From IMG/VR virus record IMGVR_UViG_3300020469_000021, positions 1-64,000 of that record: a stretch of DNA of 64,000 bases. One strand, written 5' to 3'. A program made the translations under genes and the position numbers. The notes beneath the pieces were generated by a model. That model saw only the letters and a list, made by a program, of their open reading frames with translations. It did not search any database and was not told the origin of the DNA. Below, in pieces: positions 1-44,665 of this stretch. The stretch is from a virus. Each line of letters begins with the position of its first letter. Positions within the stretch are counted from its first letter, which is position 1.

Positions 1-48
1 ACCCCAACACCCACTCCAACACCCACCCCAACACCTACTCCAACGCCA
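1..48 (+). repeat. Thr-Pro coding repeat (partial)
   Basis: ACNCCN hexamer array running off the window start. Confidence 0.9.
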
Positions 49-3000: not shown

Positions 3001-3378
3001 CCAACTTTAAATGTTAAATCAGGCAATGTCGGAGTCGGAATAGATAGTCCTATCTCGACACTTCATGTTAAATCATCACTAGATGGTCCTATTTTCGATA
3101 GTGGTGGCACAGACAATGCAAATCATGCATTTCTTGTTCGTGACAATTCTAATAATCAGTTGTTGCGCGTAGAAAACAACGGCAATGTCGGTATTGGTAC
3201 TACGACTCCTAGTGCTCCCCTTGAGATTTCCTCCACATCTGGTGGTCTTATTTTACCTAGAATGACAGCTTCTCAGAAAAATGCTATAACAAGCCCGACT
3301 CGTGGTGAGATGGTGTTTGATGATACAGATAATACGTTTTACGGCTACAACGGAACAAGCTGGGTAGCCCTGCACTAA
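1..3378 (+). CDS. Tail-fibre/adhesin-like structural protein, 5'-truncated by the window edge
   Basis: Frame +1 is open from base 1 (TPTPTP...YFWA) into the ORF at 169. Two PT linkers, eight GN(V/I)G(I/V)G(T/I)xxP repeats, and C-terminal GLILPRMT...GEMVFD...YNGTSW fibre domain. Confidence 0.8.
490..633 (+). repeat. Thr-Pro coding repeat, 48 codons
   Basis: ACNCCN array with one Leu interruption. Confidence 0.95.
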
Positions 3379-5952: not shown

Positions 5953-7130
5953 AACAATATGCTTTGAGTTGCGGTTTAAAAATAGGACAACCGCATATAG
6001 AGACACTTTTTTACCCAACTGGCGTTGATAAATATATTACAATTCATAATAGTAAAAAGTTTGAATCTAGAAACTACGATTATTTTGGGGATTCAGTTAC
6101 TTCCATGCTACCTTTTTTAAAAAAAGAAGAAATTTCTATTTTTCAAGTTGGTATCCCCGATGACCCACTAATTCCTTACTGCAAAGACTTGAGAGGCAAA
6201 ACAAATTTAAAGCAGCTTGCGTATGTTCTCTCAAAAAGCTTGCTACATATTGGTATAGACAGCCTGCCAATACATCTAGCTTCTCATTTTAAAGTTCCGG
6301 TTGTAGGCCTTTACTCTAATATGTATAAAGAACACTCTGCGCCGTACTGGAAAGAAGATTCTACCACTGTTTTACTAGAAAGCGACAGGAAAGGGTTGAA
6401 ACCTAGTTATGCAAATAAAGAATCTCCAAAGACAATTAACATGATTTGTCCAGATGACATAGCATCTAATAGTTTAGATTTATTAAATATAAATCACGAT
6501 TTAAAGAGCTTGGATTGTTTTTATGTAGGTTCCGATTTTTGCAACATTAGCATTGATGTCGTTCCAAATTTTTTACCCAATGCTCATTTTTCTGGGTCTG
6601 AAGTTTGCATAAGAATGGACAAGTATCACACATCAAGCAATTTAGCTTCTTGGTTAAGCTGCTGTAAATGTAGTATTATTTCTGAAGAACAAATCGACCT
6701 TGCGACAATTTTTTCTTTTAAAAATAATATTAAAAATATTACTTTTATTATATCTGGAGAGCAAGTTAAAATCCCTATAGACTATTTAAAGCTTCTACAG
6801 TCTTCGGGCATTTCTTTTGAGCTTAAGACTGAAGATGAAGATTTAATATCCTCTTATAGAATGCATTATTTTGACTGGAAAGTATCTTCTGTAAAAAAAT
6901 ATTCAAAGAAATGTGTTGACAAATTAGAAAAAATATGCGATACTACTTTCTTTAAAACATCAAAGATTATATTCTCTAACCAAAATAAGTACGCAAGTGA
7001 AGCTCATCAAAAAAAAGAAATCCCAATGCCTCCCCCAGATTCAAAAGGGCCAAATGGAGGAATCCAAATACTAGATGAAGATTTGTTTTGGGAATGGGCT
7101 CCATATTATAAACTATTTAATACTAAATAA
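5940..7130 (+). CDS. GT9-like glycosyltransferase domain protein
   Basis: DLRGKTNLKQLAYVL..LHIGIDSLPIHLA..VPVVGLY. Confidence 0.7.
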   Translation: MHILEQYALSCGLKIGQPHIETLFYPTGVDKYITIHNSKKFESRNYDYFGDSVTSMLPFLKKEEISIFQVGIPDDPLIPYCKDLRGKTNLKQLAYVLSKSLLHIGIDSLPIHLASHFKVPVVGLYSNMYKEHSAPYWKEDSTTVLLESDRKGLKPSYANKESPKTINMICPDDIASNSLDLLNINHDLKSLDCFYVGSDFCNISIDVVPNFLPNAHFSGSEVCIRMDKYHTSSNLASWLSCCKCSIISEEQIDLATIFSFKNNIKNITFIISGEQVKIPIDYLKLLQSSGISFELKTEDEDLISSYRMHYFDWKVSSVKKYSKKCVDKLEKICDTTFFKTSKIIFSNQNKYASEAHQKKEIPMPPPDSKGPNGGIQILDEDLFWEWAPYYKLFNTK

Positions 7131-8412: not shown

Positions 8413-8471
8413 GATATGATTACACTTTTTTTCTTGACTTGTTTTTAGAATTGCTATATATTATATTCATC

Positions 8472-16479: not shown

Positions 16480-16490
16480 AAAGTTATATT

Positions 16491-22868: not shown

Positions 22869-23114
22869 GTGAACGACAAGAGATTAATGCATTTTTTAGG
22901 GTTTTTATGCGCTTTTTTATTATATCTTTTATATGTCGAACAAAAAGAATCTAAAAACCTTGAAGATACGATATATAAACAAGGAGAGGCGATTAAAGCA
23001 CAATCTTTATATATTCGATTTTTAGAATATAGAGGAAGTGCAGATCACCCTAGTTTTATTTTACCCCCTAACACGCCTTTAGAAAAATCCCCAATTTACA
23101 AGTTTCCAATATGA
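22869..23114 (+). CDS. Small N-terminally anchored protein
   Basis: TM plus coiled coil; GTGTA 14 nt upstream. Confidence 0.6.
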   Translation: MNDKRLMHFLGFLCAFLLYLLYVEQKESKNLEDTIYKQGEAIKAQSLYIRFLEYRGSADHPSFILPPNTPLEKSPIYKFPI

Positions 23115-23581
23115 CATTACGAGAGTTAATTAATTGCAATGCCTACAAAAATGTTTTTAATTTCCTATATAAAATTTATTATAAAGATAAAGATTCAAGT
23201 GAAGTTGAAAAATTTGATGTAGCATATCTTGACGTATGGAATAATCTTATTAAAAAAAAATTAAATCTTAAAAAAGATTATAAAATTTTAATAAAAGAGT
23301 TTCCAGCCAATCCAGAAGATGAGTTCAGCGAAAGCTTTATTGATGTCTGCCTAGAAGAAAAAGGAGAAATTTTTTCAATAGATTTAGTTATTTGGAATGA
23401 TCTTATTGATGTTGAAGTTTGTAAAAAAGCGGATATTTGCGATGCAGAAGCGCTCGCCCATATTCTTTGGGAGATAACTTTTTATGGTTTTAGCGAGGCG
23501 CAAATAGAAAATTTTAGAAAGTCATTAGACAAATTGTCTAAAGAGAATGGAGAGTCTATAGACTTGGAAGACTTGTTCTAA
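23111..23581 (+). CDS. DUF6557-like hypothetical protein
   Basis: LAHILWEITFYGFSE. Confidence 0.55.
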   Translation: MTLRELINCNAYKNVFNFLYKIYYKDKDSSEVEKFDVAYLDVWNNLIKKKLNLKKDYKILIKEFPANPEDEFSESFIDVCLEEKGEIFSIDLVIWNDLIDVEVCKKADICDAEALAHILWEITFYGFSEAQIENFRKSLDKLSKENGESIDLEDLF

Positions 23582-24253
23582 ATGCCCCTTTTAAGAAAGT
23601 ATAAATCTATTTTTATCCACATTCCAAAATGCGGAGGCAGTAGCGTTGAATCTGTTTTATTTCCTGAAGAAGATCGTCTCCCGAATAATTTATGGATGGG
23701 CATAGGCTTAGGGAAAAACCCAGAGTATTGTTTGAGCGGGCTTGGCTTCAGAAATCAATATGGCATTACCGGAGGCTTGCAACACCTGCCTGCGAAAACT
23801 ATAAAAAGAGTTGTAGATAAAAATCTTTTTGATTCTTATTTCAAATTTTGCTTTGTTAGAAATCCATATGAAAGAGCGGTATCTCAGTTTTTTTATTCAA
23901 AAAATTTTAGGTCGGACTTATGTGAATGGATTGATCTGCCACAAAATGGCGAGTTTAGTTTTACAGATTATCTCAATGCTATAATCTCATCACCTACTCA
24001 TGTTCAATTTCAGCCTCAGTGTGATTTTATCTTTGAAGGTCCAAATCTTTTAGTTGATTTTGTTGGCAGGGTAGATAACTTTCAGGAAGATTTTGATTTT
24101 ATTTGCAACATGATAGACATCCCTTCTAAAAAAATTCCGCACGCCAACAAAAGTAATAATTTACATTATAGAGATATGTATTCTCTTTCTGACAAAAGGC
24201 TTGTAGAAAAAATATATGAATGTGATATAGACTTCTTAAAATATTCTTTTTAA
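23582..24253 (+). CDS. Sulfotransferase family 2 protein
   Basis: HIPKCGGSS; FVRNPYERAVS. Confidence 0.9.
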   Translation: MPLLRKYKSIFIHIPKCGGSSVESVLFPEEDRLPNNLWMGIGLGKNPEYCLSGLGFRNQYGITGGLQHLPAKTIKRVVDKNLFDSYFKFCFVRNPYERAVSQFFYSKNFRSDLCEWIDLPQNGEFSFTDYLNAIISSPTHVQFQPQCDFIFEGPNLLVDFVGRVDNFQEDFDFICNMIDIPSKKIPHANKSNNLHYRDMYSLSDKRLVEKIYECDIDFLKYSF

Positions 24254-24254
24254 C

Positions 24255-24872
24255 ATGATTAGCCACTCAAAAAAATTTGCCTTTCTTCATTTGCCAAAAT
24301 GCGCAGGGACTTCCTTGCGTTCAGTTCTCGAGCCATATAGAGACGAAGAAAAAATGGCATTGGGCCACCCTAGGCTTAGAGTCATAATGGATGACTACTA
24401 TCTAATTAGGCCGTGCGGGCAAGAAATTTACATAAACAAAGATTCCTACAAAATATTTACCTTTGTCAGAAATCCTTTTGATAGGCTCGTTAGCGCTTTT
24501 TTTTATCTAAAGTCTGGAGGGGGCAATGATTTGGATTCAAAATTTTCTAAAGATAACAATCTTTTATATGCAAAGTTTACTGATTTCGTGAAAGAGCAAC
24601 TATGCCAATGCAATTACATTCACTTTCGCAAGATAGTTGGAGATTTGATTTTAGAAAGAGACCTAAAGCACATTGATTTCATTGGAAAAATTGAGACTTT
24701 CAACTCAGACTGGGAGTTTCTTTGCTCAAAAATAGGCATCCCTTATTCTGAAATTCCTAACAAAAATTCCAGTAACCACAAAGATTATAGAGAACACTAT
24801 ACCGATGAGACTCGGGCGATAGCTCAAGATTACTACTCCAAAGATATAGAATATTTTAAATATGAATTCTAA
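24255..24872 (+). CDS. Sulfotransferase family 2 protein
   Basis: HLPKCAGTS; FVRNPFDRLVS. Confidence 0.9.
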   Translation: MISHSKKFAFLHLPKCAGTSLRSVLEPYRDEEKMALGHPRLRVIMDDYYLIRPCGQEIYINKDSYKIFTFVRNPFDRLVSAFFYLKSGGGNDLDSKFSKDNNLLYAKFTDFVKEQLCQCNYIHFRKIVGDLILERDLKHIDFIGKIETFNSDWEFLCSKIGIPYSEIPNKNSSNHKDYREHYTDETRAIAQDYYSKDIEYFKYEF

Positions 24873-25656
24873 TTTTATAGATAATTTTGAGATAGTTGGC
24901 TTTGGGGATGGGCGCTTTAAACGCATCGCCCTAAACTGGGCGCTTCATTTAGAAGACCTCGGAATTAAAAACTATTCAGTTATTTGCATGGATGAAGAAA
25001 TAAATGATTACCTAATCAATCATAACATAAAAACTACAATTCTTAAAAAAGAAATCTTTTCTGATGGATTTAAAGCTGATTGGGGCGCGCGTTTTAAAGA
25101 GCTTTTTAGATTAATTAATTCAGGTAAAAGTATTATCCACTCAGATTTAGACGCAGTTTGGCTTAAAAATCCCAAAGACTATATAATTGAAGGCTATGAT
25201 ATAATATCATCTGTGGGCAATATGCCAGATTATACTCGGTTTTTTAAAAAATTTCACTGCTCAATATGCATGGGCTGGATTTGTGTACGATCAAACGAAA
25301 AAACTATAAAACTTTTTGAATCTATACTGGAAGACCCAAAACTTCATAGGACAGGAAATTTTGATGATCAAATTGCATTCAATTTTAAACTTTTAGATGA
25401 GCAAGAAACTTTAATTCATGTTGTTAAAGATGAACGCTCTATACAAGAAGCAGAAGATTTTATTTGCGGAAATCTTAGCGTTAGACTTTTAAAGCAAAAA
25501 GTTATTAACCGACACGATCAAAATATTTCTGAATGTTTTATATCTCATCCAATCCCCCCCTATTCTGGATTTAAAACCTTAAAACTATATGACACTCCTT
25601 ATCATCTTGAGTCATTCTTCAGAGGTATAGGATTGTGGCATAACAAAATAATCTAA
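24862..25656 (+). CDS. Nucleotide-diphospho-sugar transferase (GT77-like)
   Basis: HSDLDAVWLKNP, CMGW, DDQIAFN. Confidence 0.75.
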   Translation: MNSNFIDNFEIVGFGDGRFKRIALNWALHLEDLGIKNYSVICMDEEINDYLINHNIKTTILKKEIFSDGFKADWGARFKELFRLINSGKSIIHSDLDAVWLKNPKDYIIEGYDIISSVGNMPDYTRFFKKFHCSICMGWICVRSNEKTIKLFESILEDPKLHRTGNFDDQIAFNFKLLDEQETLIHVVKDERSIQEAEDFICGNLSVRLLKQKVINRHDQNISECFISHPIPPYSGFKTLKLYDTPYHLESFFRGIGLWHNKII

Positions 25657-25662
25657 AACAAA

Positions 25663-26172
25663 ATGAATTTATATAATTTACCGATTCATAAAGAATCCCC
25701 AAAAATCATTAACTGTATTGTAGAAATACCTAAAGGGACTAACGCAAAGTATGAATACGACAACGAGTTAGGAGTTTTCTTTTATGACAGAAGCTTAACC
25801 TCTGCTTTTATGTATCCTTGCAGTTACGGGTTTATACCAAATACGCTTGGAGGAGACGGAGATGCATTAGATGTTTTGGTATACAATCACTCTCCAATAG
25901 ATAGGGGCACTCTCGTAGAGTGTACTCCTTTAGGTTTACTTGATATGGAAGACGATGGTATGAAAGATTATAAAATTTTAGCTACGCCCACCTGTCATAT
26001 AAACAAATATACATGCCTAGACGATGTAAACTCTTTATTCTTAAAAATTTGCTCTAATTTCTTTCAGCATTACAAAGATTTAAATGGAAAAAAGGTTGAA
26101 GTGTTTGATTGGCACGAAAAAGAAATGGCATATCAAATTGTAAACGAAAGTATTAAAAATGATCAATCATAA
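25663..26172 (+). CDS. ppa: Inorganic pyrophosphatase (family I)
   Basis: EIPKG..KYE, YGFIPNT, DGDALDV, DYKIL, FFQHYK. Confidence 0.95.
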   Translation: MNLYNLPIHKESPKIINCIVEIPKGTNAKYEYDNELGVFFYDRSLTSAFMYPCSYGFIPNTLGGDGDALDVLVYNHSPIDRGTLVECTPLGLLDMEDDGMKDYKILATPTCHINKYTCLDDVNSLFLKICSNFFQHYKDLNGKKVEVFDWHEKEMAYQIVNESIKNDQS

Positions 26173-26719
26173 AAACAAATTTATTTTTATTCATATCCCT
26201 AAGTGTGGCGGCAATTCTATAAAATCTCCTCTCGGCATCAAAGGCCACCATCACAGCGCAATCAGTGAAAAAAAATATTCTAATCACATGGATTATTTTA
26301 AATTTACTTTTGTCAGGAATCCGTGGGATAGGTTTTTAAGCGCATATTCTTACTTAAAAGCCGGGGGTTTCGGCAATAAGCTAGATCTTAATTTAAAACA
26401 AAAAATCGAAAGCTACGATTCTTTTGAAGAATTTATTCTTAAAGCTCCGTTTTTAACATACCTCCACTTTGAACCTATGTTTAAACTCATACAAATCGAT
26501 GGAGAAGACCGAATGGATTTTATTGGTAGGGTAGAGAATTATCAAGAAGACTTTGACATAATCTGCGACAAAATTGGTGTTCCACGCAAAGAACTTCCAC
26601 ATACAAACAAAAGCAAACACAAACACTATACAGAATACTACAACGATCAAACTCGCAAACTTATCGCGCAATTCTATTCGAAAGATGTGGATTATTTCGG
26701 CTACAAATTTGGAGAATGA
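26159..26719 (+). CDS. Sulfotransferase family 2 protein
   Basis: HIPKCGGNS; FVRNPWDRFLS. Confidence 0.9.
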   Translation: MINHKNKFIFIHIPKCGGNSIKSPLGIKGHHHSAISEKKYSNHMDYFKFTFVRNPWDRFLSAYSYLKAGGFGNKLDLNLKQKIESYDSFEEFILKAPFLTYLHFEPMFKLIQIDGEDRMDFIGRVENYQEDFDIICDKIGVPRKELPHTNKSKHKHYTEYYNDQTRKLIAQFYSKDVDYFGYKFGE

Positions 26720-26722
26720 GAA

Positions 26723-27250
26723 ATGACGAGTGCGAAATGTAAGTTTATTTTTGTGCATGTGACAAAAACAGGGGGTACATCTATACAGCGCGCATTAAAT
26801 ATAAGAACAGATCATGTACCTGCAAGTAAAATTAGAGAAAAAGTTGGAAAGAATAAATGGAGTAGTTACTTTAAATTTAGTTTTGTTCGGAATCCTTTTG
26901 ACAAGATAGTCTCTCAGTACCACTATAACGGTTCTGACTTTGGATTTAAAAATTCAACCTTTAAGCAGTATGTAAAAGCATGGAGCGAAGGCCATAGAAT
27001 AAGCTGGTACCCCCCATTTAACTTATTTTACATAGATGAAAAACTAGATTTTATAGGAAGATTTGAAAACCTGCAAGAAGACTTTGATATCGTCTGCGAC
27101 AAAATTGGAATTGCAAGACAACAACTTCCTCGCGCAAACAAAAGCGAACATAAGCACTACACCGAATACTACGATGAAGAAACAAAGCAAATTGTTGCAG
27201 AAAAGCATGCAAAAGATATCGAGTATTTCGGCTACAAATTTGGAGAGTAA
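26723..27250 (+). CDS. Sulfotransferase family 2 protein
   Basis: HVTKTGGTS; FVRNPFDKIVS. Confidence 0.88.
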   Translation: MTSAKCKFIFVHVTKTGGTSIQRALNIRTDHVPASKIREKVGKNKWSSYFKFSFVRNPFDKIVSQYHYNGSDFGFKNSTFKQYVKAWSEGHRISWYPPFNLFYIDEKLDFIGRFENLQEDFDIVCDKIGIARQQLPRANKSEHKHYTEYYDEETKQIVAEKHAKDIEYFGYKFGE

Positions 27251-27321
27251 AATGAAAAAAACAACTTTAAAAATAATGTAATAGTCCAGAGCTGTATGGG
27301 CAAAAACGCAAAGGTTTACAA

Positions 27322-27951
27322 ATGATAAGTCATAAACATAAATTTATATATACAAGAGTTGCAAAAACAGGGTCTTCCGCCCTACTATCTGAGCTTAAGA
27401 ATTATGTGAGTGATTTTCAGAGGGCATTCAATCAAAAAAGTTTTGACTATGATTTCAATCATATTTCAACTCCAGATATCAAAAAAAAAGTGCCTGATGA
27501 ATTCGATGAATATTTCAAATGGGCATTCACCAGAAACCCTTGGGATCGATTAGTTTCTGTTTGGGCTATGAATAAGCAGAAAGAAGGGTTTGCCTGCACC
27601 TTTCCTCGGTGTATTTCAGATTTTCCTGATTTTGTTAAATCATTAGACAACTTAGATTGGATACCTAAAAAAAACAGATTTACAGAAAGCAATAAAAAAT
27701 ATTTTAATTACACCTTTGGAAATGTTTCTGACTTTACTGAAGGATCTGATTTTATCGGTCGTTTTGAAAACCTTCAAGAAGACTTTGATATCGTCTGTGA
27801 CAAAATTGGAATTCCGCGACAAGAACTTCCACACAGAAATGCTACAAAACACAAACACTATACCGAATACTACGATGAAGAAACAAGGCAAATCGTTGCG
27901 GAAAAATACGCAAAAGACATTGAGTATTTCGGATATGAATTTGGAGAATAA
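27322..27951 (+). CDS. Sulfotransferase family 2 protein
   Basis: RVAKTGSS; FTRNPWDRLVS. Confidence 0.88.
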   Translation: MISHKHKFIYTRVAKTGSSALLSELKNYVSDFQRAFNQKSFDYDFNHISTPDIKKKVPDEFDEYFKWAFTRNPWDRLVSVWAMNKQKEGFACTFPRCISDFPDFVKSLDNLDWIPKKNRFTESNKKYFNYTFGNVSDFTEGSDFIGRFENLQEDFDIVCDKIGIPRQELPHRNATKHKHYTEYYDEETRQIVAEKYAKDIEYFGYEFGE

Positions 27952-27954
27952 CAA

Positions 27955-28794
27955 ATGAAAAATAAAAAACAAAAATGGTGGAAAAATAAATTCTCATCCA
28001 CAATAGTATTAAAAACTTTCTTATTTAAGGTGGAGCTCTCTGGCAACGCCGATGGCGGCATATTAATATTCAAATCACTTCTATCTAAAACACCAAGCGC
28101 TTTCCTTAAATTAGACCCTGAAATAATAATGAAATTCGCAAATGATGTCTGCATGAAAATGCATAGATTTGGCGAAATTGAAAGTATACCCGAAGATAAA
28201 ATTATAAACTTACATGAAAATTACTTCTGCGCAGAGACGATAAGAGACATTTATTCAAATATCATCTCAGACCTACAGGCTGACAACAGCGGACACAGAA
28301 CAAATAATATTGTTTCATTCGGTCACGTGTTGAAAAATAAGCCTGAAAGAATAAAATACATTGAAATGTGTGAAAACTCTGCTTTTTTAGACTATATACC
28401 AACTAAAAAATTTAATACATATTCTAAAGATACTGCGGAATTCAAAAGCGTATTAGATCTAAAAAAGAGTCATAAATATTTCATTGACCTAGCAGGCCAT
28501 ACCTACAGTACTAAATCATATCTATTTCTTGCGTCTAAAAGAGTTTACTTTTCTTCCGAGCATCCTGAGGTTTTTGAATGGGAAAAAAACCACCTAAAGC
28601 CTTGGGAAAATTACGTTCCAGTTAAAAGCGATCTTTCAGATCTTATGGATAATTATCAAATCATAGAGTCAGATCCAAAACTATATGAAAAAATTATTCA
28701 AAACAATATTAATTTATTACAAAACCAAATCTCTCCAGAATTAATGCTAGATCAAGTAATAAAAAAAATTGCATCTCATGTAAAATTTGCGTGA
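27955..28794 (+). CDS. GT90/CAP10-like glycosyltransferase
   Basis: KYFIDLAGHTYS, LKPWENYVPVKSDLSDL. Confidence 0.75.
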   Translation: MKNKKQKWWKNKFSSTIVLKTFLFKVELSGNADGGILIFKSLLSKTPSAFLKLDPEIIMKFANDVCMKMHRFGEIESIPEDKIINLHENYFCAETIRDIYSNIISDLQADNSGHRTNNIVSFGHVLKNKPERIKYIEMCENSAFLDYIPTKKFNTYSKDTAEFKSVLDLKKSHKYFIDLAGHTYSTKSYLFLASKRVYFSSEHPEVFEWEKNHLKPWENYVPVKSDLSDLMDNYQIIESDPKLYEKIIQNNINLLQNQISPELMLDQVIKKIASHVKFA

Positions 28795-30305
28795 ATATTT
28801 CTCTCTATACGCTGCTAATCCCAAGAATGGAGCTTCCATTCATCGAAGAATGGATTGAGCATCACCTAAGTCTTGGGGTGGATAAAATCTATATCTATAA
28901 TAACGGCGACGCCCCCTCTGATAGCGATGAATATCTACAGGCTGGAGCTAGAGAATTATCAAGGCAAGAAAAAAATATTAAGTGGGCAAAAAAACCAGAC
29001 GCAGAATATTGTTTAGAACTTACTTCTGAAGAAGCGCTAAAACAACTTAATAAAATACTCGAAAAGTACAAAGGCAAAGTTTTTTTAAAATCTTGGATAT
29101 ATGGCAAAGATCATTCTACTGCATATCCAGAATCACAAATTACTGGTTACAAAAATTGCGCGGAAAATAACTATTCGGATTGGTGGCTATTCATGGATGT
29201 AGATGAATTTTTGTTTTTAAATAAACATAAGAATATAAAAAGTTTTTTATCCGATCAGCCAGATTCTAACCACAGCTTAAGATTAGAATTTCCTCAGAGA
29301 GTCTTCAATAAAAGAGTTAAAGAAAAATCGGTTAGAAAAATATTCGACTGGGGCTACGATCATTTGACTCAATTCAAATCTATGATTAAAGGCATCAAAT
29401 TTAGAGATGGCAATGACATTTGCGATGTACACAGTATAGGAGGCGAATGCGTAGAGAGCATTGCGGTACCTTTTGAAGTTGCAAGGTACCACCATTATAG
29501 AGGAGATCCTAGCAAAATGGGCGGTCCAGCGCACAGGCGCATGGGAAAAGTTAGTTTTAACAAATTTGATATTTCAATGTCCAAATACTTCCAAAAAACT
29601 GGCATAATAACCCCCATCATTGGAGATGCCTACGACAGTCAAGTTAGGCTTGGCATGATATCTAAAAACATTTATTGCAGAAGAAATAAATACGAATTGA
29701 TCATCCCCAAAAAAAAAGAATACGAAAAAATTCAAGACCCAAATAAGCGCCCCGGCTGGGTTAAAGTAGATTGCTTGATAGAAAACTACTATAAATACAA
29801 TCTTCTTTTTCTGAGCGACGCAGATGTTTGTATTATGAATTTTGACTTTAACCTTGAAAATTTAGCGAAAGAATTTACAGAAGAAAAACTTATGTTAATC
29901 ACAAAAGATCGCAACGGAATAAACAGTGGCAATGTTTTAATTAAAGGAGGGAGTCAAATAATGTACTACTATCTAAACAGGTGGCGAAATCTACTTGGAG
30001 GTCAATATAAATATGTAGGATATCAAGACCAACCCGCTTTATCTTATATGATTCATGAGACTGATTTTAAAAAACATGTCAAGATAGTCGACCAGTCTCT
30101 AATCAACAGTTACCCTAAAAATATAGCCCACAAAGGAGACAAAGCTTACAAAGATGGGGATTTCTTAATTCATTACGCTGGATACAATACTAGCCCTCAA
30201 GAAGAGGAGCTTAATTTATCAAAAGCTATGGAAAAAGATTTCCATAAGTCCATGGGCATTAACAATGTAAGCTGTAAAGAGATCATAGAATCCAAAAATT
30301 ACTAG
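28791..30305 (+). CDS. Two-domain glycosyltransferase (GT92/GT2-like + GT34-like)
   Basis: EWIEHHLSLGVDKIYIYNN, MDVDEF; WVKV, SDADVCIMN, INSG, DQPAL, GDFLIHYAG. Confidence 0.8.
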   Translation: MNISLYTLLIPRMELPFIEEWIEHHLSLGVDKIYIYNNGDAPSDSDEYLQAGARELSRQEKNIKWAKKPDAEYCLELTSEEALKQLNKILEKYKGKVFLKSWIYGKDHSTAYPESQITGYKNCAENNYSDWWLFMDVDEFLFLNKHKNIKSFLSDQPDSNHSLRLEFPQRVFNKRVKEKSVRKIFDWGYDHLTQFKSMIKGIKFRDGNDICDVHSIGGECVESIAVPFEVARYHHYRGDPSKMGGPAHRRMGKVSFNKFDISMSKYFQKTGIITPIIGDAYDSQVRLGMISKNIYCRRNKYELIIPKKKEYEKIQDPNKRPGWVKVDCLIENYYKYNLLFLSDADVCIMNFDFNLENLAKEFTEEKLMLITKDRNGINSGNVLIKGGSQIMYYYLNRWRNLLGGQYKYVGYQDQPALSYMIHETDFKKHVKIVDQSLINSYPKNIAHKGDKAYKDGDFLIHYAGYNTSPQEEELNLSKAMEKDFHKSMGINNVSCKEIIESKNY

Positions 30306-32048: not shown

Positions 32049-32453
32049 GTGAGTGATAAAAAATTAAAACACAAACATTTATTAGTGAACGCTACTTTTC
32101 AAAACACGCCTTTTGTCTGTGTCGATTTTACTGAATCTTGGATCAAAATGCTGGTTAAAAAGATAGGCATGGAAATACTTTATGCGCCAAAAGCGGTAAT
32201 CTGCGATAAAGAATACAACGAAGGCATAAGTGCATTTTGCCTTATTACAACTAGTCATATAAGTTTACATTCTTGGGAAAAATCTAATCCAAATTTAGTC
32301 CAACTTGATGTTTATAGTTGTAAAAATTTCGATCAAAGCGTCATTTTAAATGAATTGAATAAATTTAATCCTTTATTTTTGGGTTGTAAATTTCTTGACA
32401 GAGAAATAGAAAATACAAAAGGCTGGAGAATGTTTGGCGAAGATTTGGCATGA
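32049..32453 (+). CDS. Second SpeD-family pyruvoyl decarboxylase (TSH variant)
   Basis: HKHLL, GIS..ITTSHISLHSW, QLDVYSCK. Confidence 0.8.
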   Translation: MSDKKLKHKHLLVNATFQNTPFVCVDFTESWIKMLVKKIGMEILYAPKAVICDKEYNEGISAFCLITTSHISLHSWEKSNPNLVQLDVYSCKNFDQSVILNELNKFNPLFLGCKFLDREIENTKGWRMFGEDLA

Positions 32454-35636: not shown

Positions 35637-36557
35637 ATGAAGTTTTTTATTTACAAGGAAAATTTAAATTTCTGCGCAGAAAATGCCGCCCAAAAATATG
35701 CAAAAGAGATTATTGAAGCTTTAAAAAACACGACCCACGAAGAAACTTTAGACCCACTAGAAGCAAAAGTTTTTTTTACAAATATTTCTAACGAAAGAAA
35801 TTATGAAAAATTTACCTCTTCAGGTTTTGGAGAATTAAAGCCGATCAATTATTTAAAAATTTGCCAAAAAGTTGTTTCATCAAAATATTTAGAACTTGGC
35901 CCGCATTTCACTTTTTTTCATCGGCTAGATAACAAAGATTATTACCCCGTATTAAACCACAAAAATGTAGTCAATATCCCTTATCATAATCCAAATTTTC
36001 AGCCTCTTAAGGATTTTATCATATCTCCCCCTGCGATAAAAAAAGTTTCTTTTAATGATAGTCTACTAAAGCGTTTTCTGCTTTCTTTTAAAGGCCACTG
36101 GGGAATAAGAAGTATTAAAGGGCGAGATCACAGGTGGGGCTGTCTAGATAAAATCTCTAAGTTAAATAACGATCACATTATAATTATAGATAGCAAAGAT
36201 GACCGACATAATTATATTGATTTAATGAGTAATTCTCTCTTTTCTTTAATTACCGAGGGAGATGAACCTTGGTCCTACAGATTAAGCGAAGCTATATGTG
36301 CTGGATCAATTCCTGTGTTATTGGAAAAAGATTGGCACAACCTTCCATATAGTAACATCATAAATTATGATAATTTTATTATAAAAATAAATTATTTAAA
36401 TCCAGAAATGGTATACAGTGCAATTATGAACTGTTCTCTGGAAGAGATATCTACAAAAATTAAATACATGAAATCGATTAGACATTTATTTTCGTCAAGA
36501 AGAGATCAAATGCAATTGCTCTTAGATTTTTATGAAAAATATCAAGATAATGCTTGA
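35637..36557 (+). CDS. Exostosin (GT47)-like glycosyltransferase
   Basis: LLSFKG, YIDLMSNSLFSL..GD..WSYRLSEAICAGSIPV. Confidence 0.8.
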   Translation: MKFFIYKENLNFCAENAAQKYAKEIIEALKNTTHEETLDPLEAKVFFTNISNERNYEKFTSSGFGELKPINYLKICQKVVSSKYLELGPHFTFFHRLDNKDYYPVLNHKNVVNIPYHNPNFQPLKDFIISPPAIKKVSFNDSLLKRFLLSFKGHWGIRSIKGRDHRWGCLDKISKLNNDHIIIIDSKDDRHNYIDLMSNSLFSLITEGDEPWSYRLSEAICAGSIPVLLEKDWHNLPYSNIINYDNFIIKINYLNPEMVYSAIMNCSLEEISTKIKYMKSIRHLFSSRRDQMQLLLDFYEKYQDNA

Positions 36558-36599: not shown

Positions 36600-37424
36600 A
36601 TGATATTAGTAACTGGCCATAAAGGATATATAGGGAGTCACCTATACAAAAAAGTTAAAATGCTAGGTAAACCTGTAGTAGGAATTGACTTAAAAGATGG
36701 AGAAGATTTGAATGAACGATTGCCTGATGGCGATTTTGATTTTGTATTTCATTTTGCGGCGCTTCCTAGAGTTGAAATGTCTGTGGAATCACCGAGCTAT
36801 ACTTTAAAGCAAAATGTTCTATCTACTTCTAGACTTCTAGAGTGGAGTAAAGACCATGGGGTAAAAAGGTTTATTTTTTCTTCTTCTTCTGCAATCATGG
36901 GGCATGGAGACGGAGTTCCCTTATCTCCCTACGGACTACATAAACGAATGTCAGAGATGGAGTGTGAGCTTTATTCTCGCATATATGATCTTGACACAGT
37001 TTGCTTGAGATATTTTAACGCGTATTCTGAAGATCAGCCATATGGAGGAGCTTATACTACTGCAATTGCAGCTTGGATGGAAAAAATAAGGAGTTGTGAT
37101 CAATTAAGAATGGACGGAGACGGAGAACAGACCAGAGACTTAGTTCATGTTGAGGATATTGTATCTGCTAATATTTTTGTGATGAACAGTGAGCAAAAAT
37201 TTAATGGAAAATATTTCAATGTCGGATCTGGAGAAGCTGTATCAATGAACTATATCAAAAACTATATTGACGAGTACAATAAAGGCGTTTCTTGGAAATA
37301 TGCTTTAGCGAGAAAAGGTGATGCGAGAAATACTCTTGCAGACATATCAGAACTAAAAGCTTTAGGATGGGAACCAAAGGTAAGTATTGAAGAAGGGTTA
37401 AAGAGGTGTTTTAATGCGAGTTAG
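36600..37424 (+). CDS. NAD-dependent sugar epimerase/dehydratase
   Basis: TGHKGYIG, SSS, YGLHK, LRYFN, RDLVHVED. Confidence 0.92.
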   Translation: MILVTGHKGYIGSHLYKKVKMLGKPVVGIDLKDGEDLNERLPDGDFDFVFHFAALPRVEMSVESPSYTLKQNVLSTSRLLEWSKDHGVKRFIFSSSSAIMGHGDGVPLSPYGLHKRMSEMECELYSRIYDLDTVCLRYFNAYSEDQPYGGAYTTAIAAWMEKIRSCDQLRMDGDGEQTRDLVHVEDIVSANIFVMNSEQKFNGKYFNVGSGEAVSMNYIKNYIDEYNKGVSWKYALARKGDARNTLADISELKALGWEPKVSIEEGLKRCFNAS

Positions 37425-40542: not shown

Positions 40543-41403
40543 ATGATTCCAAAAATTATTCATCAAAGTCAAAAAAACGAAGACTCGATAACTCAAGAGG
40601 AAAATTGTTATCGCAAACTTTTGCAAGAAAAAAATGCTGGTTTTGAATATAAGTTCTGGTCAGACGAAGATAATTTTAATTTAATTAAAGATCACTACAA
40701 CTGGTTTCTCCCCACATATAATTCTTATAAATGGCCAGTGCAAAAAGCTGATGCTTGTAGATATTTTTACTTACATCGCTATGGAGGAATTTATTTAGAC
40801 TTAGATATGGAGCCAATTCAGCCTATTGCTAAAATGATCAATTTTCTAGACAAAGGAGTCATTCAACCACTCGATAGATCTGGCGCAGGAGCTAAATCAG
40901 TATTTCTTTTTGAAGAATATCCTAATGCTTTTTTTATGCAAAAAACAATTTTTAACGGAGCTATGGTTTCTTCAAAAGGCGATCCATTTTGGCCTTTCGT
41001 TCATTTTTATTTGCAAGCTTACCAATTTTTGCAAGAAAAAAAATTAAACGCAAACTCCCATGTTAACTCAAAGACCCAGAATGTATTAAGAACTACAGGC
41101 CCAAGATTCTTAAGAGAAGCGTATGTAAAATATAAAAACGTGACAGAAGGCTTACCAACTGGCAATGGAGTTAATGTATTCCCTTGGTTTTGCATTAATC
41201 TACCTAGAGTTCCAAGTGTTGATAAAGAAAATCCTTGGGTAGTTTACGATAGTTTTCATCCAAAAAATTTAAGTAAAGTTGATAACGACAATCCAGCTTC
41301 TTCAGTTTGGTCAAGATTTTTACCCTTTACTGCCAAAGCAGAAGATTACCCAAATACTTTTTTTATCCACCAAAGCCTACAGACATGGCATAAAGATTTA
41401 TGA
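40543..41403 (+). CDS. GT32 (DxD) glycosyltransferase
   Basis: IPKIIHQ, ADACRYFYLHRYGGIYLDLD, TTGP. Confidence 0.88.
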   Translation: MIPKIIHQSQKNEDSITQEENCYRKLLQEKNAGFEYKFWSDEDNFNLIKDHYNWFLPTYNSYKWPVQKADACRYFYLHRYGGIYLDLDMEPIQPIAKMINFLDKGVIQPLDRSGAGAKSVFLFEEYPNAFFMQKTIFNGAMVSSKGDPFWPFVHFYLQAYQFLQEKKLNANSHVNSKTQNVLRTTGPRFLREAYVKYKNVTEGLPTGNGVNVFPWFCINLPRVPSVDKENPWVVYDSFHPKNLSKVDNDNPASSVWSRFLPFTAKAEDYPNTFFIHQSLQTWHKDL

Positions 41404-41962: not shown

Positions 41963-42754
41963 ATGAATCTACCAAGTTATTATCTATCTTTTGCTCAACA
42001 AATGGGTATAGATGTAGCAGATATTGTTAGGCTAGACAAATTTAAGTTCATTAATAAAGATTTTCCATTAGCTTCTATTTTAATATATGAATCACCTTTC
42101 AATAAAATTCGTGTTGGCAGAGATGGAGATGGAGGTTATGTAATTGCAGAGGGTTTGACTTACGATTGCTTAATTAGTGGAGGAGTCAATGACGATGACT
42201 CTTTTGAGCAAGATTTTCTATCTCTCAATGATGTTCCATCTTACGCTTTTGATGGCTCTATAGAGAAGATGCCTACAAAAGATAGAAGAATAAAATTCTA
42301 CAGCAAGAACATCTCAGATAAAAACTCTAAAAAAGAAGATAATTTATCTAACTTGTTGAAAGACTATGATGACATTTTTTTAAAGATTGACATAGAAGGA
42401 GACGAATATATTTGGCTAAATAGCCTTGATGATGACCAGCTATCTAAATTCAAGCAAATCGCCATTGAGTTTCATGAGCCATATGAGCGATACAAATGGA
42501 GGTGCTTAGAAAGATTATCTTCAAGCCATTGGGCAATTCATTTTAATCCCAATAATTGTGGTTCTGTTTGCTATCATGTTAATGATGAAGTTTCCACAAG
42601 AGTTGCCGAGTGTTTTGAAATGACATACATAAGGAAGGCAGACATAAAAGGCGAGCTGAATCTTAATAAATCAACATTTCCAACAAAATTAGATAAACCT
42701 AACGACCCAAATAGGAGAGTCATTAACTATCAGGGGTTTCCCTACTCAATATGA
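41963..42754 (+). CDS. FkbM/Methyltransf_22-like methyltransferase
   Basis: RVGRDGDGGY, SFE, LKIDIEGDE, QIAIEFH. Confidence 0.8.
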   Translation: MNLPSYYLSFAQQMGIDVADIVRLDKFKFINKDFPLASILIYESPFNKIRVGRDGDGGYVIAEGLTYDCLISGGVNDDDSFEQDFLSLNDVPSYAFDGSIEKMPTKDRRIKFYSKNISDKNSKKEDNLSNLLKDYDDIFLKIDIEGDEYIWLNSLDDDQLSKFKQIAIEFHEPYERYKWRCLERLSSSHWAIHFNPNNCGSVCYHVNDEVSTRVAECFEMTYIRKADIKGELNLNKSTFPTKLDKPNDPNRRVINYQGFPYSI

Positions 42755-43736: not shown

Positions 43737-44015
43737 GTGAAAAAAGAGAAGCATGAACAACCAAGGCTCTACACCTTCAGGGTTAAATATAACGCGGGTG
43801 CAGGGCATGAAGCGAATGATTCGTTTCATTATTTTAAAGCAATAAGCGCCGATCAAGCTTTAGACTTTCATTTTGCAATGATGGAAAGAAATAATTTCAT
43901 TAGCCAAACTATTAGCGTGGAAAGAAAAGATCCCTATGCGGATAAATGGGTTTTAGAAGAAAGCAAAAAAAATAATAAATGGACAAATATAACGGAAAAT
44001 TGTTTCAAACAATAA
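43737..44015 (+). CDS. Hypothetical protein
   Basis: ORF track. Confidence 0.55.
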   Translation: MKKEKHEQPRLYTFRVKYNAGAGHEANDSFHYFKAISADQALDFHFAMMERNNFISQTISVERKDPYADKWVLEESKKNNKWTNITENCFKQ

Positions 44016-44557
44016 ATGGTGGAGATAAAAAATACTCAAAAGTCCACAGGAGATGTCTCGAACATGATGGGTGTATCGTAGACCTAGGTTGTTTAATGTG
44101 GAATTGGAGCAAATTTTTTATAGGTAAAAAAACCGTAATCGGCGCAGATCCATTTGAAAAACAAATCGAAAAAACTTTATTCTTCGAAGGGCTTGTGTCG
44201 AATTTCGATGGACATATAAACATGAAGAAAAAAGACTTTCTTGCTTCAAGTGATATGTTTGAAGAAGGGGAACACAAAAAAGAAGTTTTATCATGGAAGT
44301 CTTTTTTGAATAAATTTAGTATTAAAGAAATATCTGTATTAAAAATGAATATTGAAGGAGCAGAATACGACCTATTAAGAAGTTTAACTAAAGAGGATTT
44401 TAGCAAAATAGACCAAATAGCAGTAAGCTTTCACGAATGGCTAAACCCGCAATGGACAAAAGATACAGAAGAATGCATATCTATATTAAAAGAAAACAAT
44501 TTTGATATTCTCAACTTAGGTCAGTTTGGGTGGAGATTATGCATAAAAAATGATTAA
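43979..44557 (+). CDS. FkbM-like methyltransferase
   Basis: IVDLGC, GADP, LKMNIEGAEY, QIAVSFH. Confidence 0.78.
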   Translation: MDKYNGKLFQTINGGDKKYSKVHRRCLEHDGCIVDLGCLMWNWSKFFIGKKTVIGADPFEKQIEKTLFFEGLVSNFDGHINMKKKDFLASSDMFEEGEHKKEVLSWKSFLNKFSIKEISVLKMNIEGAEYDLLRSLTKEDFSKIDQIAVSFHEWLNPQWTKDTEECISILKENNFDILNLGQFGWRLCIKND

Positions 44558-44589: not shown

Positions 44590-44665
44590 GCCACTTTAGC
44601 TCAGATGGTAGAGCACCTCACTTGTAATGAGGATGTCGTCAGTTCGATCCTGACAAGTGGCTCCA
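44590..44665 (+). tRNA. tRNA-Thr(UGU)
   Basis: GCCACTT/AAGTGGC acceptor stem, anticodon arm CCTCA-CTTGTAA-TGAGG, TTCGATC loop, encoded CCA. Confidence 0.97.

What the first reader, a model, noticed from the sequence alone, without database searches (positions are those of the whole stretch)
23582..30305. Sulfated-glycan synthesis island with eukaryote-type glycosyltransferase families
Seen: five sulfotransferases interleaved with GT77-, GT90-, GT92- and GT34-like genes and a pyrophosphatase. GT47, GT32, an epimerase and two FkbM-like methyltransferases follow at 35.6-44.6 kb. No signal peptides are evident, and the fibre gene has long Thr-Pro tracts. Established: marine Verrucomicrobiota specialise in sulfated, methylated algal polysaccharides, and Thr/Pro linkers are common O-glycan acceptors. 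Inference: the phage may coat its virion with a sulfated glycan that mimics host food (bait) or shields the particle, or it may alter the host surface. No PAPS-synthesis gene is in the window.
Basis: inference. Interest (0 to 1): 0.75.

Follow-up and report, generated by a model that had tools for sequence, protein, structure and literature searches.

The report
Phage sulfated-glycan synthesis gene island
An uncultured marine jumbo-type phage carries five intact sulfate-adding enzymes packed among sugar-adding enzymes; they most likely build a variable, sulfated sugar coat, possibly on the phage's own threonine/proline-rich fibres, and no such coat has been described for a bacterial virus.

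Summary
Window 23582-30305 encodes five Sulfotransfer_2 proteins, a GT77-like transferase, an inorganic pyrophosphatase, a GT90-like protein and a GT92+GT34 fusion. All pass Pfam's cut-offs, and all five sulfotransferases keep the PAPS-binding and catalytic residues. GT47, epimerase, GT32 and two FkbM genes follow. GT4 and GT9-like genes sit directly behind a tail-fibre gene with long (Thr-Pro)n tracts.

All these enzymes are predicted soluble. The 105-kb record has no exporter-type membrane protein and no PAPS gene. It lacks replication and tail genes, so it is probably about half of a roughly 200-kb genome. Four relatives carry an APS-kinase-like/adenylyltransferase fusion 2-11 kb from their sulfotransferases.

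The nearest relative keeps the flanks at 88-99% nucleotide identity but swaps a 2.7-kb core: two sulfotransferases and the glycosyltransferase are replaced. Relatives hold 0-11 sulfotransferases.

Best reading (about 0.45): a cytoplasmic pathway that O-glycosylates and sulfates the phage's own Ser/Thr/Pro-rich virion proteins. Main rival (about 0.3): remodelling of host surface glycan. The link between sulfotransferase number and such tracts is only a weak trend. The "bait" idea is untested, and a Verrucomicrobiota host has only indirect support.

This scan has flagged similar phage glycosylation/sulfation cassettes on other DNA. I found no published description.

The parts
1..3378 (+). Tail-fibre gene that runs off the contig's 5' end. 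It has three (Thr-Pro)n tracts (1-54, 490-567, 574-633) and is the candidate glycan acceptor.
   Evidence: PHROG tail-fibre families, E 1.7e-24 and 1.4e-22. Translation. Tract scan.
4039..5952 (+). GT4-type glycosyltransferase (Glycos_transf_1) with DUF4214, just downstream of the fibre gene (one 184-aa ORF of unknown function, 3479-4033, lies between).
   Evidence: Pfam 35 bits. PHROG glycosyltransferase E 1e-20. Soluble.
5940..7130 (+). GT9-like (heptosyltransferase-family) protein.
   Evidence: Pfam Glyco_transf_9, 38 bits, partial match. No PDB sequence relative.
22869..23114 (+). 81-aa protein with one N-terminal TM helix, the first gene of the island's gene string. A GTGTA promoter-like motif starts 14 nt before its start codon.
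   Evidence: Hydropathy. Motif scan.
23111..23581 (+). DUF6557 protein of unknown role, conserved with the island in the close relative.
   Evidence: Pfam 50.8 bits. 82% identity in G005.
23582..24253 (+). Sulfotransferase ST1 (223 aa).
   Evidence: Pfam E 2e-13. PKxGG(S/T)S and RNPxxRxxS motifs. Orthologue in G005.
24255..24872 (+). Sulfotransferase ST2 (205 aa).
   Evidence: Pfam E 1e-19. Motifs. 91% orthologue in G005.
24862..25656 (+). GT77-type nucleotide-diphospho-sugar transferase (264 aa).
   Evidence: Pfam Nucleotid_trans, 58 bits. Soluble.
25663..26172 (+). Inorganic pyrophosphatase (169 aa). It would pull PPi-releasing steps such as APS and NDP-sugar formation.
   Evidence: Pfam E 3e-47. 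NCBIfam inorganic diphosphatase E 6e-47. Homologues lie beside glycan, ST or APS-kinase-like genes in G001 and G002.
26159..26719 (+). Sulfotransferase ST3 (186 aa); the hypervariable core starts here.
   Evidence: Pfam E 6e-19. AF2 model pLDDT 90. The top 22 PDB matches are all PAPS-type sulfotransferase-fold entries; the best are HS 6-O-ST (Z 10.8) and HS 2-O-ST (Z 10.7).
26723..27250 (+). Sulfotransferase ST4 (175 aa). It has no orthologue in the close relative.
   Evidence: Pfam E 2e-14. Tree.
27322..27951 (+). Sulfotransferase ST5 (209 aa). It has no orthologue in G005; its nearest relative is the single ST of G001.
   Evidence: Pfam E 9e-18. Tree support 98/94. Depth spike and contig ends at its 3' end in four runs.
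27955..28794 (+). GT90-like glycosyltransferase (279 aa). G005 has a GT2-like gene in its place; G002 keeps it between STs.
   Evidence: Pfam 27.3 bits. POGLUT1 E 2e-7. G005 swap. G002 homologue at 60% identity.
28791..30305 (+). Two-domain glycosyltransferase: GT2_4/GT92 in the N-terminal part, GT34 in the C-terminal part (504 aa; the true start may be at residue 13).
   Evidence: Pfam. 97% identity in G005. The nearest Atlas clusters are phage GT92 and GT34 proteins.
35637..36557 (+). GT47 (exostosin-type) glycosyltransferase.
   Evidence: Pfam 60 bits.
36600..37424 (+). NAD-dependent sugar-nucleotide epimerase/dehydratase.
   Evidence: Pfam E 5e-46. GalE-like by NCBIfam, below cut-off.
40543..41403 (+). 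GT32-type glycosyltransferase (DXD sugar-binding region).
   Evidence: Pfam 68 bits.
41963..42754 (+). FkbM-type methyltransferase 1 (weak call).
   Evidence: Pfam 23.2 bits against a cut-off of 22.7.
43979..44557 (+). FkbM-type methyltransferase 2.
   Evidence: Pfam 37.5 bits.
44590..44665 (+). tRNA-Thr (anticodon TGT), directly after the second glycan block. It might help translate the Thr-rich tracts; this is inference only.
   Evidence: ARAGORN.

Best explanation
The island is the core of a phage-encoded cytoplasmic pathway that builds a multiply sulfated, probably also methylated, oligosaccharide.

Proposed steps:
- Soluble glycosyltransferases extend a glycan from host or phage nucleotide sugars. 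These are the GT77-, GT90- and GT92+GT34-type enzymes, helped by the GT47, GT32, GT4 and GT9-like enzymes elsewhere in the window. The epimerase adjusts the sugar donors.
- Five deeply diverged PAPS-type sulfotransferases each add sulfate at a different position or sugar.
- The embedded pyrophosphatase pulls the PPi-releasing steps (APS and NDP-sugar formation).
- PAPS comes from the host, or from an APS-kinase-like enzyme of the kind four relatives encode.

The most likely acceptor is the phage's own Ser/Thr/Pro-rich tracts in virion proteins: the tail fibre, and a head-module protein at 103033-103686 of the record. That would give a mucin-like sulfated coat, and its structure is diversified between strains by exchange of a sulfotransferase/glycosyltransferase cassette.

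Shown: the gene content, the intact motifs and fold, the solubility, the absence of export genes in the held DNA, and the cassette swap.

Inferred: sulfation activity, the product, the acceptor and the timing.
For: Enzymes:
- The Pfam calls all pass their cut-offs.
- In all five STs the Lys of the 5'-phosphosulfate loop and the RNPxxRxxS 3'-phosphate motif are invariant. A His is invariant across 27 family members.
- The ST3 model has pLDDT 90. Its 22 best PDB matches are all PAPS-type sulfotransferase-fold entries, led by the heparan-sulfate 6-O and 2-O enzymes (Z 10.8 and 10.7).

ST and GT work together:
- A 647-aa phage protein elsewhere fuses Sulfotransfer_2, GT25 and Sulfotransfer_4.
- The GT90-like gene sits between STs again in the distant relative G002.

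Cytoplasmic, with no export machinery of its own:
- No ST or GT has a TM segment or signal-like N-terminus.
- No protein in the 105 kb has more than 4 TM segments.

Possible protein acceptor:
- The tail fibre has (TP)n tracts, with the GT4 and GT9-like genes close behind it.
- The head-module protein has a (TP)17 N-terminus and two extra S/T-rich insertions that homologues lack.
- The best solved relatives of the GT90-like protein are protein O-glucosyltransferases.
- S/T/P tracts of 12 or more codons occur in 4 of 5 lineage records of at least 100 kb with 5 or more STs.

Timing: the same GTGTA(T)AAT promoter-like motif, 14-20 nt before the start codon, precedes the island's gene string and two head-module genes next to TerL (96953 and 99043).

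Diversification:
- Against G005, nucleotide identity is 88-98% at 24.1-26.2 kb, 36-70% at 26.2-28.9 kb and 91-99% at 28.9-31.6 kb.
- ST4, ST5 and the GT90-like gene are replaced there by non-orthologous STs and a GT2-like gene.
- Relatives carry 0-11 STs.

Sulfate donor: four relatives encode an APS-kinase-like fusion 2-11 kb from ST genes (Z 17.6 to CysC, rmsd 1.8 A).
Against: - No biochemical or proteomic data exist.
- The link between ST number and S/T/P tracts is weak. G262 has about 10 STs and no tract in its held 116 kb. G275 has tracts and no ST. Among records with 2 or fewer STs, 2 of 6 have tracts. Most records are incomplete, and G000 and G005 are not independent.
- The island lies 20 kb from the fibre gene, not inside the structural operon.
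- The large Thr-rich ORFs of G002 and G004 could not be shown to be virion proteins.
- The promoter-like motif also precedes non-structural genes (PhoH, the SpeD operon, tmRNA), so it does not define a strictly late class.
- No PAPS gene is in the held record.
Confidence: 0.45

Rival explanations
1. Host-surface remodelling. The soluble phage GTs and STs act at the cytoplasmic face on the host's lipid-linked LPS, capsule or EPS precursors, and the host's own flippases or exporters carry these out. The changed, sulfated surface blocks superinfection, keeps progeny from sticking to debris, or alters grazing or aggregation of the infected cell.
For: - The phage brings no export machinery of its own, so host export is a simple route.
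- GT9-, GT4- and GT25-type enzymes are typical LPS and capsule enzymes.
- The literature on GT-rich marine phages assumes host surface modification (PMC12801897).
- PVC-type bacteria make sulfated exopolymers with GT/ST/methyltransferase clusters (PMC7356697).
- A hypervariable ST/GT cassette is what surface-antigen loci look like.
Against: - No priming transferase, Gtr-type or acyltransferase-type membrane component was found.
- This reading does not explain the lineage-specific TP and S/T insertions in virion-module proteins.
- The GT4 and GT9-like genes lie just downstream of the fibre gene.
- The GT90-like protein's solved relatives are protein O-glycosyltransferases.
Confidence: 0.3
2. 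Another acceptor: a soluble sulfated oligosaccharide or glycolipid (signal, osmolyte, decoy), a secreted phage protein, or glycan-hypermodified phage DNA.
For: - Viral GTs can hypermodify DNA with glycans (Pyle et al. 2024, cited in PMC12619734).
- A nucleoside 2-deoxyribosyltransferase-like gene lies at 8439-9035.
- The phage exports PSCyt2/PSD1 and DUF1501 proteins.
Against: - No thymidylate-synthase-family hydroxymethylase is present in G000, G005 or the three complete relatives G001-G003.
- Five STs and at least eight GT domains are far more than any known DNA sugar modification needs.
- No lipid or secondary-metabolite scaffold genes were seen.
Confidence: 0.1
3. Direct protein sulfation. 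The STs sulfate hydroxylated residues of fibre-like proteins without a glycan in between, as predicted for bacterial dioxygenase/sulfotransferase/PAPS-synthetase operons with tail-collar or collagen-like substrates (Iyer et al. 2010).
For: PMC2938197 predicts such systems with phage tail-collar-type substrates. The Pro/Thr-rich tracts are plausible targets.
Against: - No 2OG-Fe(II) oxygenase (PF13640) is present in G000, G001, G002, G003 or G005.
- The STs are interleaved with, and elsewhere fused to, glycosyltransferases.
- The best structural matches are carbohydrate sulfotransferases.
Confidence: 0.07

Closest known systems
Mycobacteriophage virion glycosylation (Che8, Corndog, Myrna; Freeman et al. 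2023, Cell Host Microbe 31:1216, PMC10527164; known here through the reference lists of PMC12619734 and PMC12801897)
   Same: Phage-encoded cytoplasmic glycosyltransferases. Ser/Thr-rich extensions on virion proteins serve as acceptors. Glycosyltransferase genes lie next to structural genes.
   Different: No sulfotransferases or methyltransferases are involved there, there are only one or two GTs, and the hosts are actinobacteria. There glycosylation was measured; here it is inferred.
Animal glycosaminoglycan and mucin sulfotransferases (heparan sulfate 2-O and 6-O-ST, CHST family; Pfam Sulfotransfer_2)
   Same: The same Pfam family and fold (Z 10.7-10.8) and the same PAPS-binding motifs. Several position-specific enzymes act on one glycan.
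   Different: The animal enzymes are roughly 300-400-aa type II Golgi membrane proteins (own knowledge). The phage ones are 175-223-aa soluble minimal domains, 14-17% identical to the HS 2-O/6-O structures, and their nearest relatives are other phage proteins.
Bacterial sulfated exopolysaccharide clusters (for example the putative sulfated GAG-like cluster of Pontiella sulfatireligans, PMC7356697)
   Same: GT, sulfotransferase and methyltransferase genes clustered together; marine PVC context.
   Different: The bacterial STs are of the Sulfotransfer_3 type (PF13469, PMC7356697). Such clusters normally come with priming and export functions (own knowledge); the phage record has no polytopic membrane protein.
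Single sulfotransferase genes already annotated in phages (Synechococcus phage ACG-2014f, Stenotrophomonas phage DLP6; OM43 phages, PMC10580990)
   Same: Homologous Sulfotransfer_2 genes at 25-27% identity. The literature states that their function in phages is unclear.
   Different: Those are single genes. Here five paralogues (up to about 11 in relatives) are interleaved with GTs and a pyrophosphatase, with a hypervariable core.
Chlorovirus and giant-virus encoded glycosylation machinery (own knowledge, not tested here)
   Same: Virus-encoded soluble GTs from families named after eukaryotic enzymes glycosylate virion proteins in the cytoplasm, independently of host pathways.
   Different: Those are eukaryotic viruses and their glycans are not known to be sulfated by viral enzymes.

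Membership tests
PAPS-dependent sulfotransferases, Pfam Sulfotransfer_2 (PF03567) | Profile match above the curated cut-off | tested here: met
   Five proteins score 51-72 bits against a cut-off of 22. The whole-record search agrees.
PAPS-dependent sulfotransferases, Pfam Sulfotransfer_2 (PF03567) | 5'-phosphosulfate-binding loop with catalytic Lys, and the 3'-phosphate motif R-x-P-x-x-R/K-x-x-S | tested here: met
   K16, R93, N94, P95 and S101 are invariant in all five. K15, H32, R53 and P55 are invariant in 27 family members.
PAPS-dependent sulfotransferases, Pfam Sulfotransfer_2 (PF03567) | Sulfotransferase fold | tested here: met
   The ST3 model has pLDDT 90. Ranks 1-22 against 48,161 PDB chains are all PAPS-type sulfotransferase-fold entries, Z 7.1-10.8.
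PAPS-dependent sulfotransferases, Pfam Sulfotransfer_2 (PF03567) | PAPS-dependent sulfate transfer to a carbohydrate | not testable with these tools
   Needs an enzyme assay.
Phage virion glycosylation systems (Freeman-type) | Glycosyltransferase genes adjoining virion structural genes | tested here: met
   GT4 (4039-5952) and GT9-like (5940-7130) follow the fibre gene closely, with one 184-aa ORF between. In relatives L013 and L020, STs follow TerL, directly in L013. The main island itself is 20 kb from the fibre.
Phage virion glycosylation systems (Freeman-type) | Ser/Thr-rich acceptor extension on virion proteins | tested here: met
   (TP)n tracts in the fibre. A (TP)17 tract plus two S/T insertions in a head-module protein, absent from homologues.
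Phage virion glycosylation systems (Freeman-type) | Glycan demonstrated on virions | not testable with these tools
   The phage is uncultured.
Seroconversion / O-antigen modification modules (Gtr, Oac type) | Polytopic membrane components (flippase, membrane GT, acyltransferase) | tested here: not met
   No ORF in the 104,956 bp has more than 4 hydrophobic segments. Caveat: the record is probably only about half the genome.
Phage DNA glycosylation (hydroxymethylpyrimidine route) | dCMP/dUMP hydroxymethylase (thymidylate-synthase family) | tested here: not met
   PF00303 is absent from G000, G005 and the three complete relatives G001-G003.
PAPS supply (CysC / CysDN / Sat) | APS kinase and sulfate adenylyltransferase genes in the phage | tested here: inconclusive
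   None in G000 or G005. G001, G002, G003 and G262 carry an APS-kinase-like domain (Z 17.6 to CysC) fused to an NMNAT-like adenylyltransferase. Its substrate is unknown.
Hydroxylase-sulfotransferase protein-modification operons (Iyer et al. 2010) | Linked 2OG-Fe(II) dioxygenase | tested here: not met
   PF13640 is absent from G000, G001, G002, G003 and G005. Other dioxygenase families were not searched.
CAZy-type GT77 / GT90 / GT92 / GT34 / GT47 / GT32 families | Pfam domain match above the cut-off | tested here: met
   GT90 is marginal (27.3 against 24) but is supported by POGLUT1/2 hits. Donor sugar and linkage cannot be tested here.

The most novel reading that the evidence does not exclude
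An abundant marine jumbo-phage lineage makes its own sulfomucin.
- Thr/Pro-rich tracts on fibres and head proteins are O-glycosylated and then sulfated at several positions by phage enzymes.
- The sulfation and sugar pattern is reshuffled between strains by cassette exchange, much as receptor-binding proteins are.
- The sulfate donor comes from a compact phage PAPS-synthase analogue: an APS-kinase domain fused to an NMNAT-like adenylyltransferase.

The coat would act in host recognition (for example by binding the sulfated-glycan uptake proteins of PVC bacteria) or as a shield.
Probability: 0.3. Interest if true: 0.85.

Novelty: new variant of a known kind. Interest (0 to 1): 0.7.

Why it matters
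Published work says the role of sulfotransferases in phage genomes is unclear (PMC10580990). Virion glycosylation has been measured only in a few mycobacteriophages.

This lineage is common in marine metagenomes:
- At least 594 IMG/VR stretches encode a TerL relative; the 80 best are 69-87% identical.
- More than 3,400 90%-identity clusters of the small sulfotransferase exist.
- The exact island was re-found with 0 differences in two runs of a 2020 study, separate from the two runs flagged as its possible source.

If these phages make sulfated glycans, that adds three things:
- a new kind of virion or infected-cell surface chemistry;
- a viral contribution to marine sulfated-glycan pools;
- a set of very small soluble carbohydrate sulfotransferases and GTs that could serve as tools.

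The cassette swap gives a natural experiment linking enzyme content to glycan structure.

Tried and rejected
I therefore could not fetch the 209,452-bp contig that carries an identical ST3 protein, and the missing half of the genome stayed out of reach.
- A PDB sequence search with ST2 gave only noise. Foldseek gave no hit at E <= 1e-3. The wide structural search was needed.
- There was no DNA-level match to 50,697 GenBank phage records. TerL is at most 27% identical to cultured phages.
- PHROGs and Pfam did not recognise the portal or capsid candidates, the (TP)17 protein, or the Thr-rich ORFs of G002 and G004. BLAST found no homology between those ORFs and the G000 fibre.
- A strict (TP)6 pattern wrongly suggested that only G000 and G005 have tracts. 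A broader T/P/S-codon pattern corrected this.
- Sigma-70 promoter and terminator scans of 19.5-32.5 kb were at chance level.
- The closest genome-collection hits of the ST family are spread over many phyla (47% or less identity) and give no host signal.
- 251 Verrucomicrobiota genomes had no DUF1501 match at E <= 1e-140, i.e. none better than the 50-53%-identity hits.
- The moraphage paper (PMC12619734) describes a jumbo-phage lineage with predicted Bacteroidota hosts and mentions neither sulfotransferases nor DUF1501; I did not compare it with this lineage.
- No RNA holder was listed among the sequencing runs, so nothing can be said on expression.
- Short-sided joints between ST paralogues in metagenome contigs were not used as evidence of recombination.
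- One mistyped call (18) and one over-long query (44) were corrected.

Full report
**1. Observation**

Pfam places five ORFs in Sulfotransfer_2: 23582-24253, 24255-24872, 26159-26719, 26723-27250 and 27322-27951, at 51-72 bits against a cut-off of 22. Interleaved with them are:
- a GT77-type Nucleotid_trans protein (24862-25656);
- an inorganic pyrophosphatase (25663-26172, E 3e-47);
- a GT90-like protein (27955-28794, marginal at 27.3 against 24 bits);
- a 504-aa fusion of a GT2_4/GT92 domain and a GT34 domain (28791-30305).

The same sulfotransferase model hits none of 14 control genomes. Five copies in 4.4 kb is therefore not chance.

GT47, a sugar-nucleotide epimerase, GT32 and two FkbM methyltransferases follow at 35.6-44.6 kb. 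I also found a GT4+DUF4214 protein and a GT9-like protein just downstream of the tail-fibre gene. The fibre ORF (PHROG tail fibre, E 1e-24) runs off the contig's 5' end and has three (Thr-Pro)n tracts.

**2. Are the enzymes likely to work?**

- The five sulfotransferases are only 31-41% identical to one another. All keep the Lys of the phosphosulfate loop and the RNPxxRxxS 3'-phosphate motif. A His is invariant across 27 family members, the five included.
- An AlphaFold model of ST3 (pLDDT 90) was aligned to 48,161 PDB chains. The 22 best matches are all PAPS-type sulfotransferase-fold entries. The leaders are heparan-sulfate 6-O-sulfotransferase (Z 10.8, rmsd 3.4 A, 168 residues) and 2-O-sulfotransferase (Z 10.7).
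- They are minimal domains of 175-223 aa with no TM segment or signal-like N-terminus, as are all the glycosyltransferases.
- No ORF in the whole record has more than four hydrophobic segments, so there is no flippase, polymerase or priming transferase.

**3. What genome is this?**

- The window is the first 64 kb of a 104,956-bp linear IMG/VR record (CheckV 79%).
- The record has TerL, PhoH, rIIA and a head-gene module at 87-104 kb. I saw no replication or tail-tube genes.
- Relatives that CheckV calls complete are 184-222 kb.
The record is therefore probably about half a genome.
- The lineage is abundant. At least 594 IMG/VR stretches encode a TerL relative; the 80 best are 69-87% identical. 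No cultured phage is close.
- Host: the phage carries an exported PSCyt2/PSD1 protein and a Tat-type DUF1501 protein. Among five genomes tried, the best cellular DUF1501 homologues are in two Verrucomicrobiota (50-53% identity, E 1e-136). A Pirellulaceae genome gave 38%, a flavobacterium 35%, and a gammaproteobacterium nothing. None of 251 sampled Verrucomicrobiota matched at E <= 1e-140. A PVC host is plausible but not shown.

**4. 'Eukaryote-type' families**

The label follows Pfam and CAZy names. The nearest protein clusters of the GT92/GT34 fusion, and of GT77-type and sulfotransferase proteins, are 54-100% viral and mostly tailed phages. The small sulfotransferase has more than 3,400 90%-identity clusters in mostly marine metagenomes. 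Bacterial genome hits are 47% identical or less and are spread over many phyla. These genes belong to a phage gene pool.

**5. Evolution of the island**

- The closest relative, G005 (102.7 kb), has the same layout. Nucleotide identity is 88-98% at 24.1-26.2 kb, falls to 36-70% at 26.2-28.9 kb and returns to 91-99% at 28.9-31.6 kb.
- In the tree, ST1, ST2 and ST3 have G005 orthologues. ST4 and ST5 do not, and G005 has two other sulfotransferase lineages instead.
- The GT90-like gene is replaced in G005 by a GT2-like gene.
- The paralogues are deep lineages, not recent duplicates.
- Sulfotransferase number in lineage records ranges from 0 to about 11.
- The GT90-like gene recurs between sulfotransferases in the distant G002.
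- One unrelated phage protein fuses Sulfotransfer_2, GT25 and Sulfotransfer_4. This ties sulfation to glycan synthesis.
- Contigs identical to the window, variable core included, occur in two marine runs of a 2020 study, separate from the two runs (2014 and 2018) flagged as its possible source. A strain 4-6% diverged occurs in a 2024 run.
- The 3' end of ST5 shows a depth spike and many contig ends in all four runs. This is expected if many other community contigs share this conserved coding end.

**6. Sulfate donor**

- The record has no APS kinase, CysD-type or ATP-sulfurylase family.
- G001, G002, G003 and G262 each encode a 270-310-aa protein with two domains.
  - The first 147 residues model as a complete APS-kinase fold: Z 17.6 to M. 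tuberculosis CysC, rmsd 1.8 A over 127 residues, 28% identity. The APS-kinase-type Arg/Phe/Arg motif is conserved (its APS-contact role is from memory). Nicotinamide riboside kinase scores only Z 10.7.
  - The C-terminal domain is NMNAT-like (GRFQPFHxGH, ISATxIR; Z 10.2).
- The fusion lies 2-6 kb from a sulfotransferase in the three complete genomes, and beside the pyrophosphatase homologue in G001.
- It could make or complete PAPS, or it could serve NAD salvage. I cannot tell which.
- The pyrophosphatase inside the island fits either APS or NDP-sugar formation. This is inference.

**7. What is the acceptor?**

For a virion-protein acceptor:
- The fibre has TP tracts, with GT genes close behind it.
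- A 217-aa protein in the head-gene module (103033-103686 of the record) starts with (TP)17 and has two further Ser/Thr-rich insertions. All three are absent from 157-159-aa homologues in relatives.
- The best solved relatives of the GT90-like protein are protein O-glucosyltransferases.
- The island's gene string starts behind the same GTGTA(T)AAT motif that precedes two head-module genes next to TerL (the motif was first noted in e1-6008257).

I then tested co-occurrence. Runs of 12 or more T/P/S codons occur in G000, G005, G002 and G273, and not in G262; those are the records of at least 100 kb with 5 or more sulfotransferases. G002 has poly-Thr tracts, including a run of more than 130 aa at a contig end. 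Such runs also occur in G004 (2 STs) and G275 (no ST). They are absent from G001, G003, G272 and G274. That is 4 of 5 against 2 of 6. It is a trend, it is not significant, and it is weakened by incomplete records and by G000 and G005 being close kin. The Thr-rich ORFs of G002 and G004 could not be identified as virion proteins.

Against the alternatives:
- No hydroxymethylase is present for DNA glycosylation.
- No PF13640 dioxygenase is present for hydroxylation-dependent protein sulfation (Iyer et al. 2010, PMC2938197).

Host-surface remodelling through host export remains fully possible.

**8. Verdict**

The product, a multiply sulfated glycan made in the cytoplasm, is likely (about 0.8). 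The acceptor is open: virion Ser/Thr/Pro tracts about 0.45, host envelope precursors about 0.3, other acceptors the rest.

Literature:
- Single sulfotransferases in phages are noted, with 'function unclear' (PMC10580990).
- GT-rich marine phages are known (PMC12801897).
- Virion glycosylation has been shown for mycobacteriophages (Freeman 2023, cited).
- I found no report of multi-sulfotransferase islands or sulfated phage glycans.

This scan has flagged similar 'phage sulfomucin' or glycosylation/sulfation cassettes on other DNA. Those are unchecked notes. They agree with this reading but do not support it independently.

Noticed in passing
window 14437-17762: A PSCyt2/PSD1 (DUF1549/DUF1553) protein with a signal peptide, followed by a DUF1501 (sulfatase-clan) protein with an SRRQF Tat-like N-terminus. 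DUF1501 is kept at 68-94% identity across the relatives found with it. This PVC-type gene pair is an unusual phage auxiliary gene set and the only host clue.
   Followed up: partly
L126 12511-13332 (-), L123 13861-14733 (+), L127 5008-5817 (+) (relatives G001, G002, G003; also G262 40043-40285): A 270-310-aa fusion of a complete APS-kinase-like domain (Z 17.6 to CysC) and an NMNAT-like adenylyltransferase. It lies 2-11 kb from sulfotransferase genes. The family has 137 50%-identity clusters at E < 1e-30. It could be a compact PAPS-synthase analogue or an NAD-salvage enzyme.
   Followed up: partly
window 44590-44665 and 13988-14425: A tRNA-Thr (TGT) lies directly after the second glycan gene block in a phage with long Thr-Pro tracts. 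A tmRNA gene with a long acidic tag lies at 13988-14425.
   Followed up: no
record 103033-103686 (outside the window; L023 19033-19686): A head-module protein that starts with MS(TP)17 and has two further Ser/Thr-rich insertions, all absent from homologues in relatives.
   Followed up: yes
window 1 and record end 104956; G005 and G002 contig ends: Contigs of this lineage tend to break inside Thr/Pro or Thr/Ser repeats: the G000 start, both ends of G005 and the G002 end. The G000 3' end is a different repeat of about 33 nt. Completeness estimates and 'linear' calls for these records are therefore unreliable.
   Followed up: partly
window 18341-19540: An AdoMet decarboxylase and a spermidine-synthase-like gene. 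Together with the SpeD-variant operon at 32049-33677, the phage carries two polyamine-type gene sets.
   Followed up: no
window 30630-31838: A subtilase (Peptidase_S8, E 1.5e-46) with an acidic repeat region. In more distant relatives this gene sits directly upstream of TerL.
   Followed up: no
L021 7466-9409: A single 647-aa phage protein that fuses Sulfotransfer_2, GT25 and Sulfotransfer_4 domains.
   Followed up: no
window 27612-28145: In four marine metagenome runs, summed contig depth is 3- to 25-fold higher here than in the flanks and many contigs end here. The conserved 3' coding end of the sulfotransferase genes is shared by many other contigs.
   Followed up: partly
window 8439-9035: A nucleoside 2-deoxyribosyltransferase-like protein (Pfam 31.7 bits) of unknown role.
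   Followed up: no
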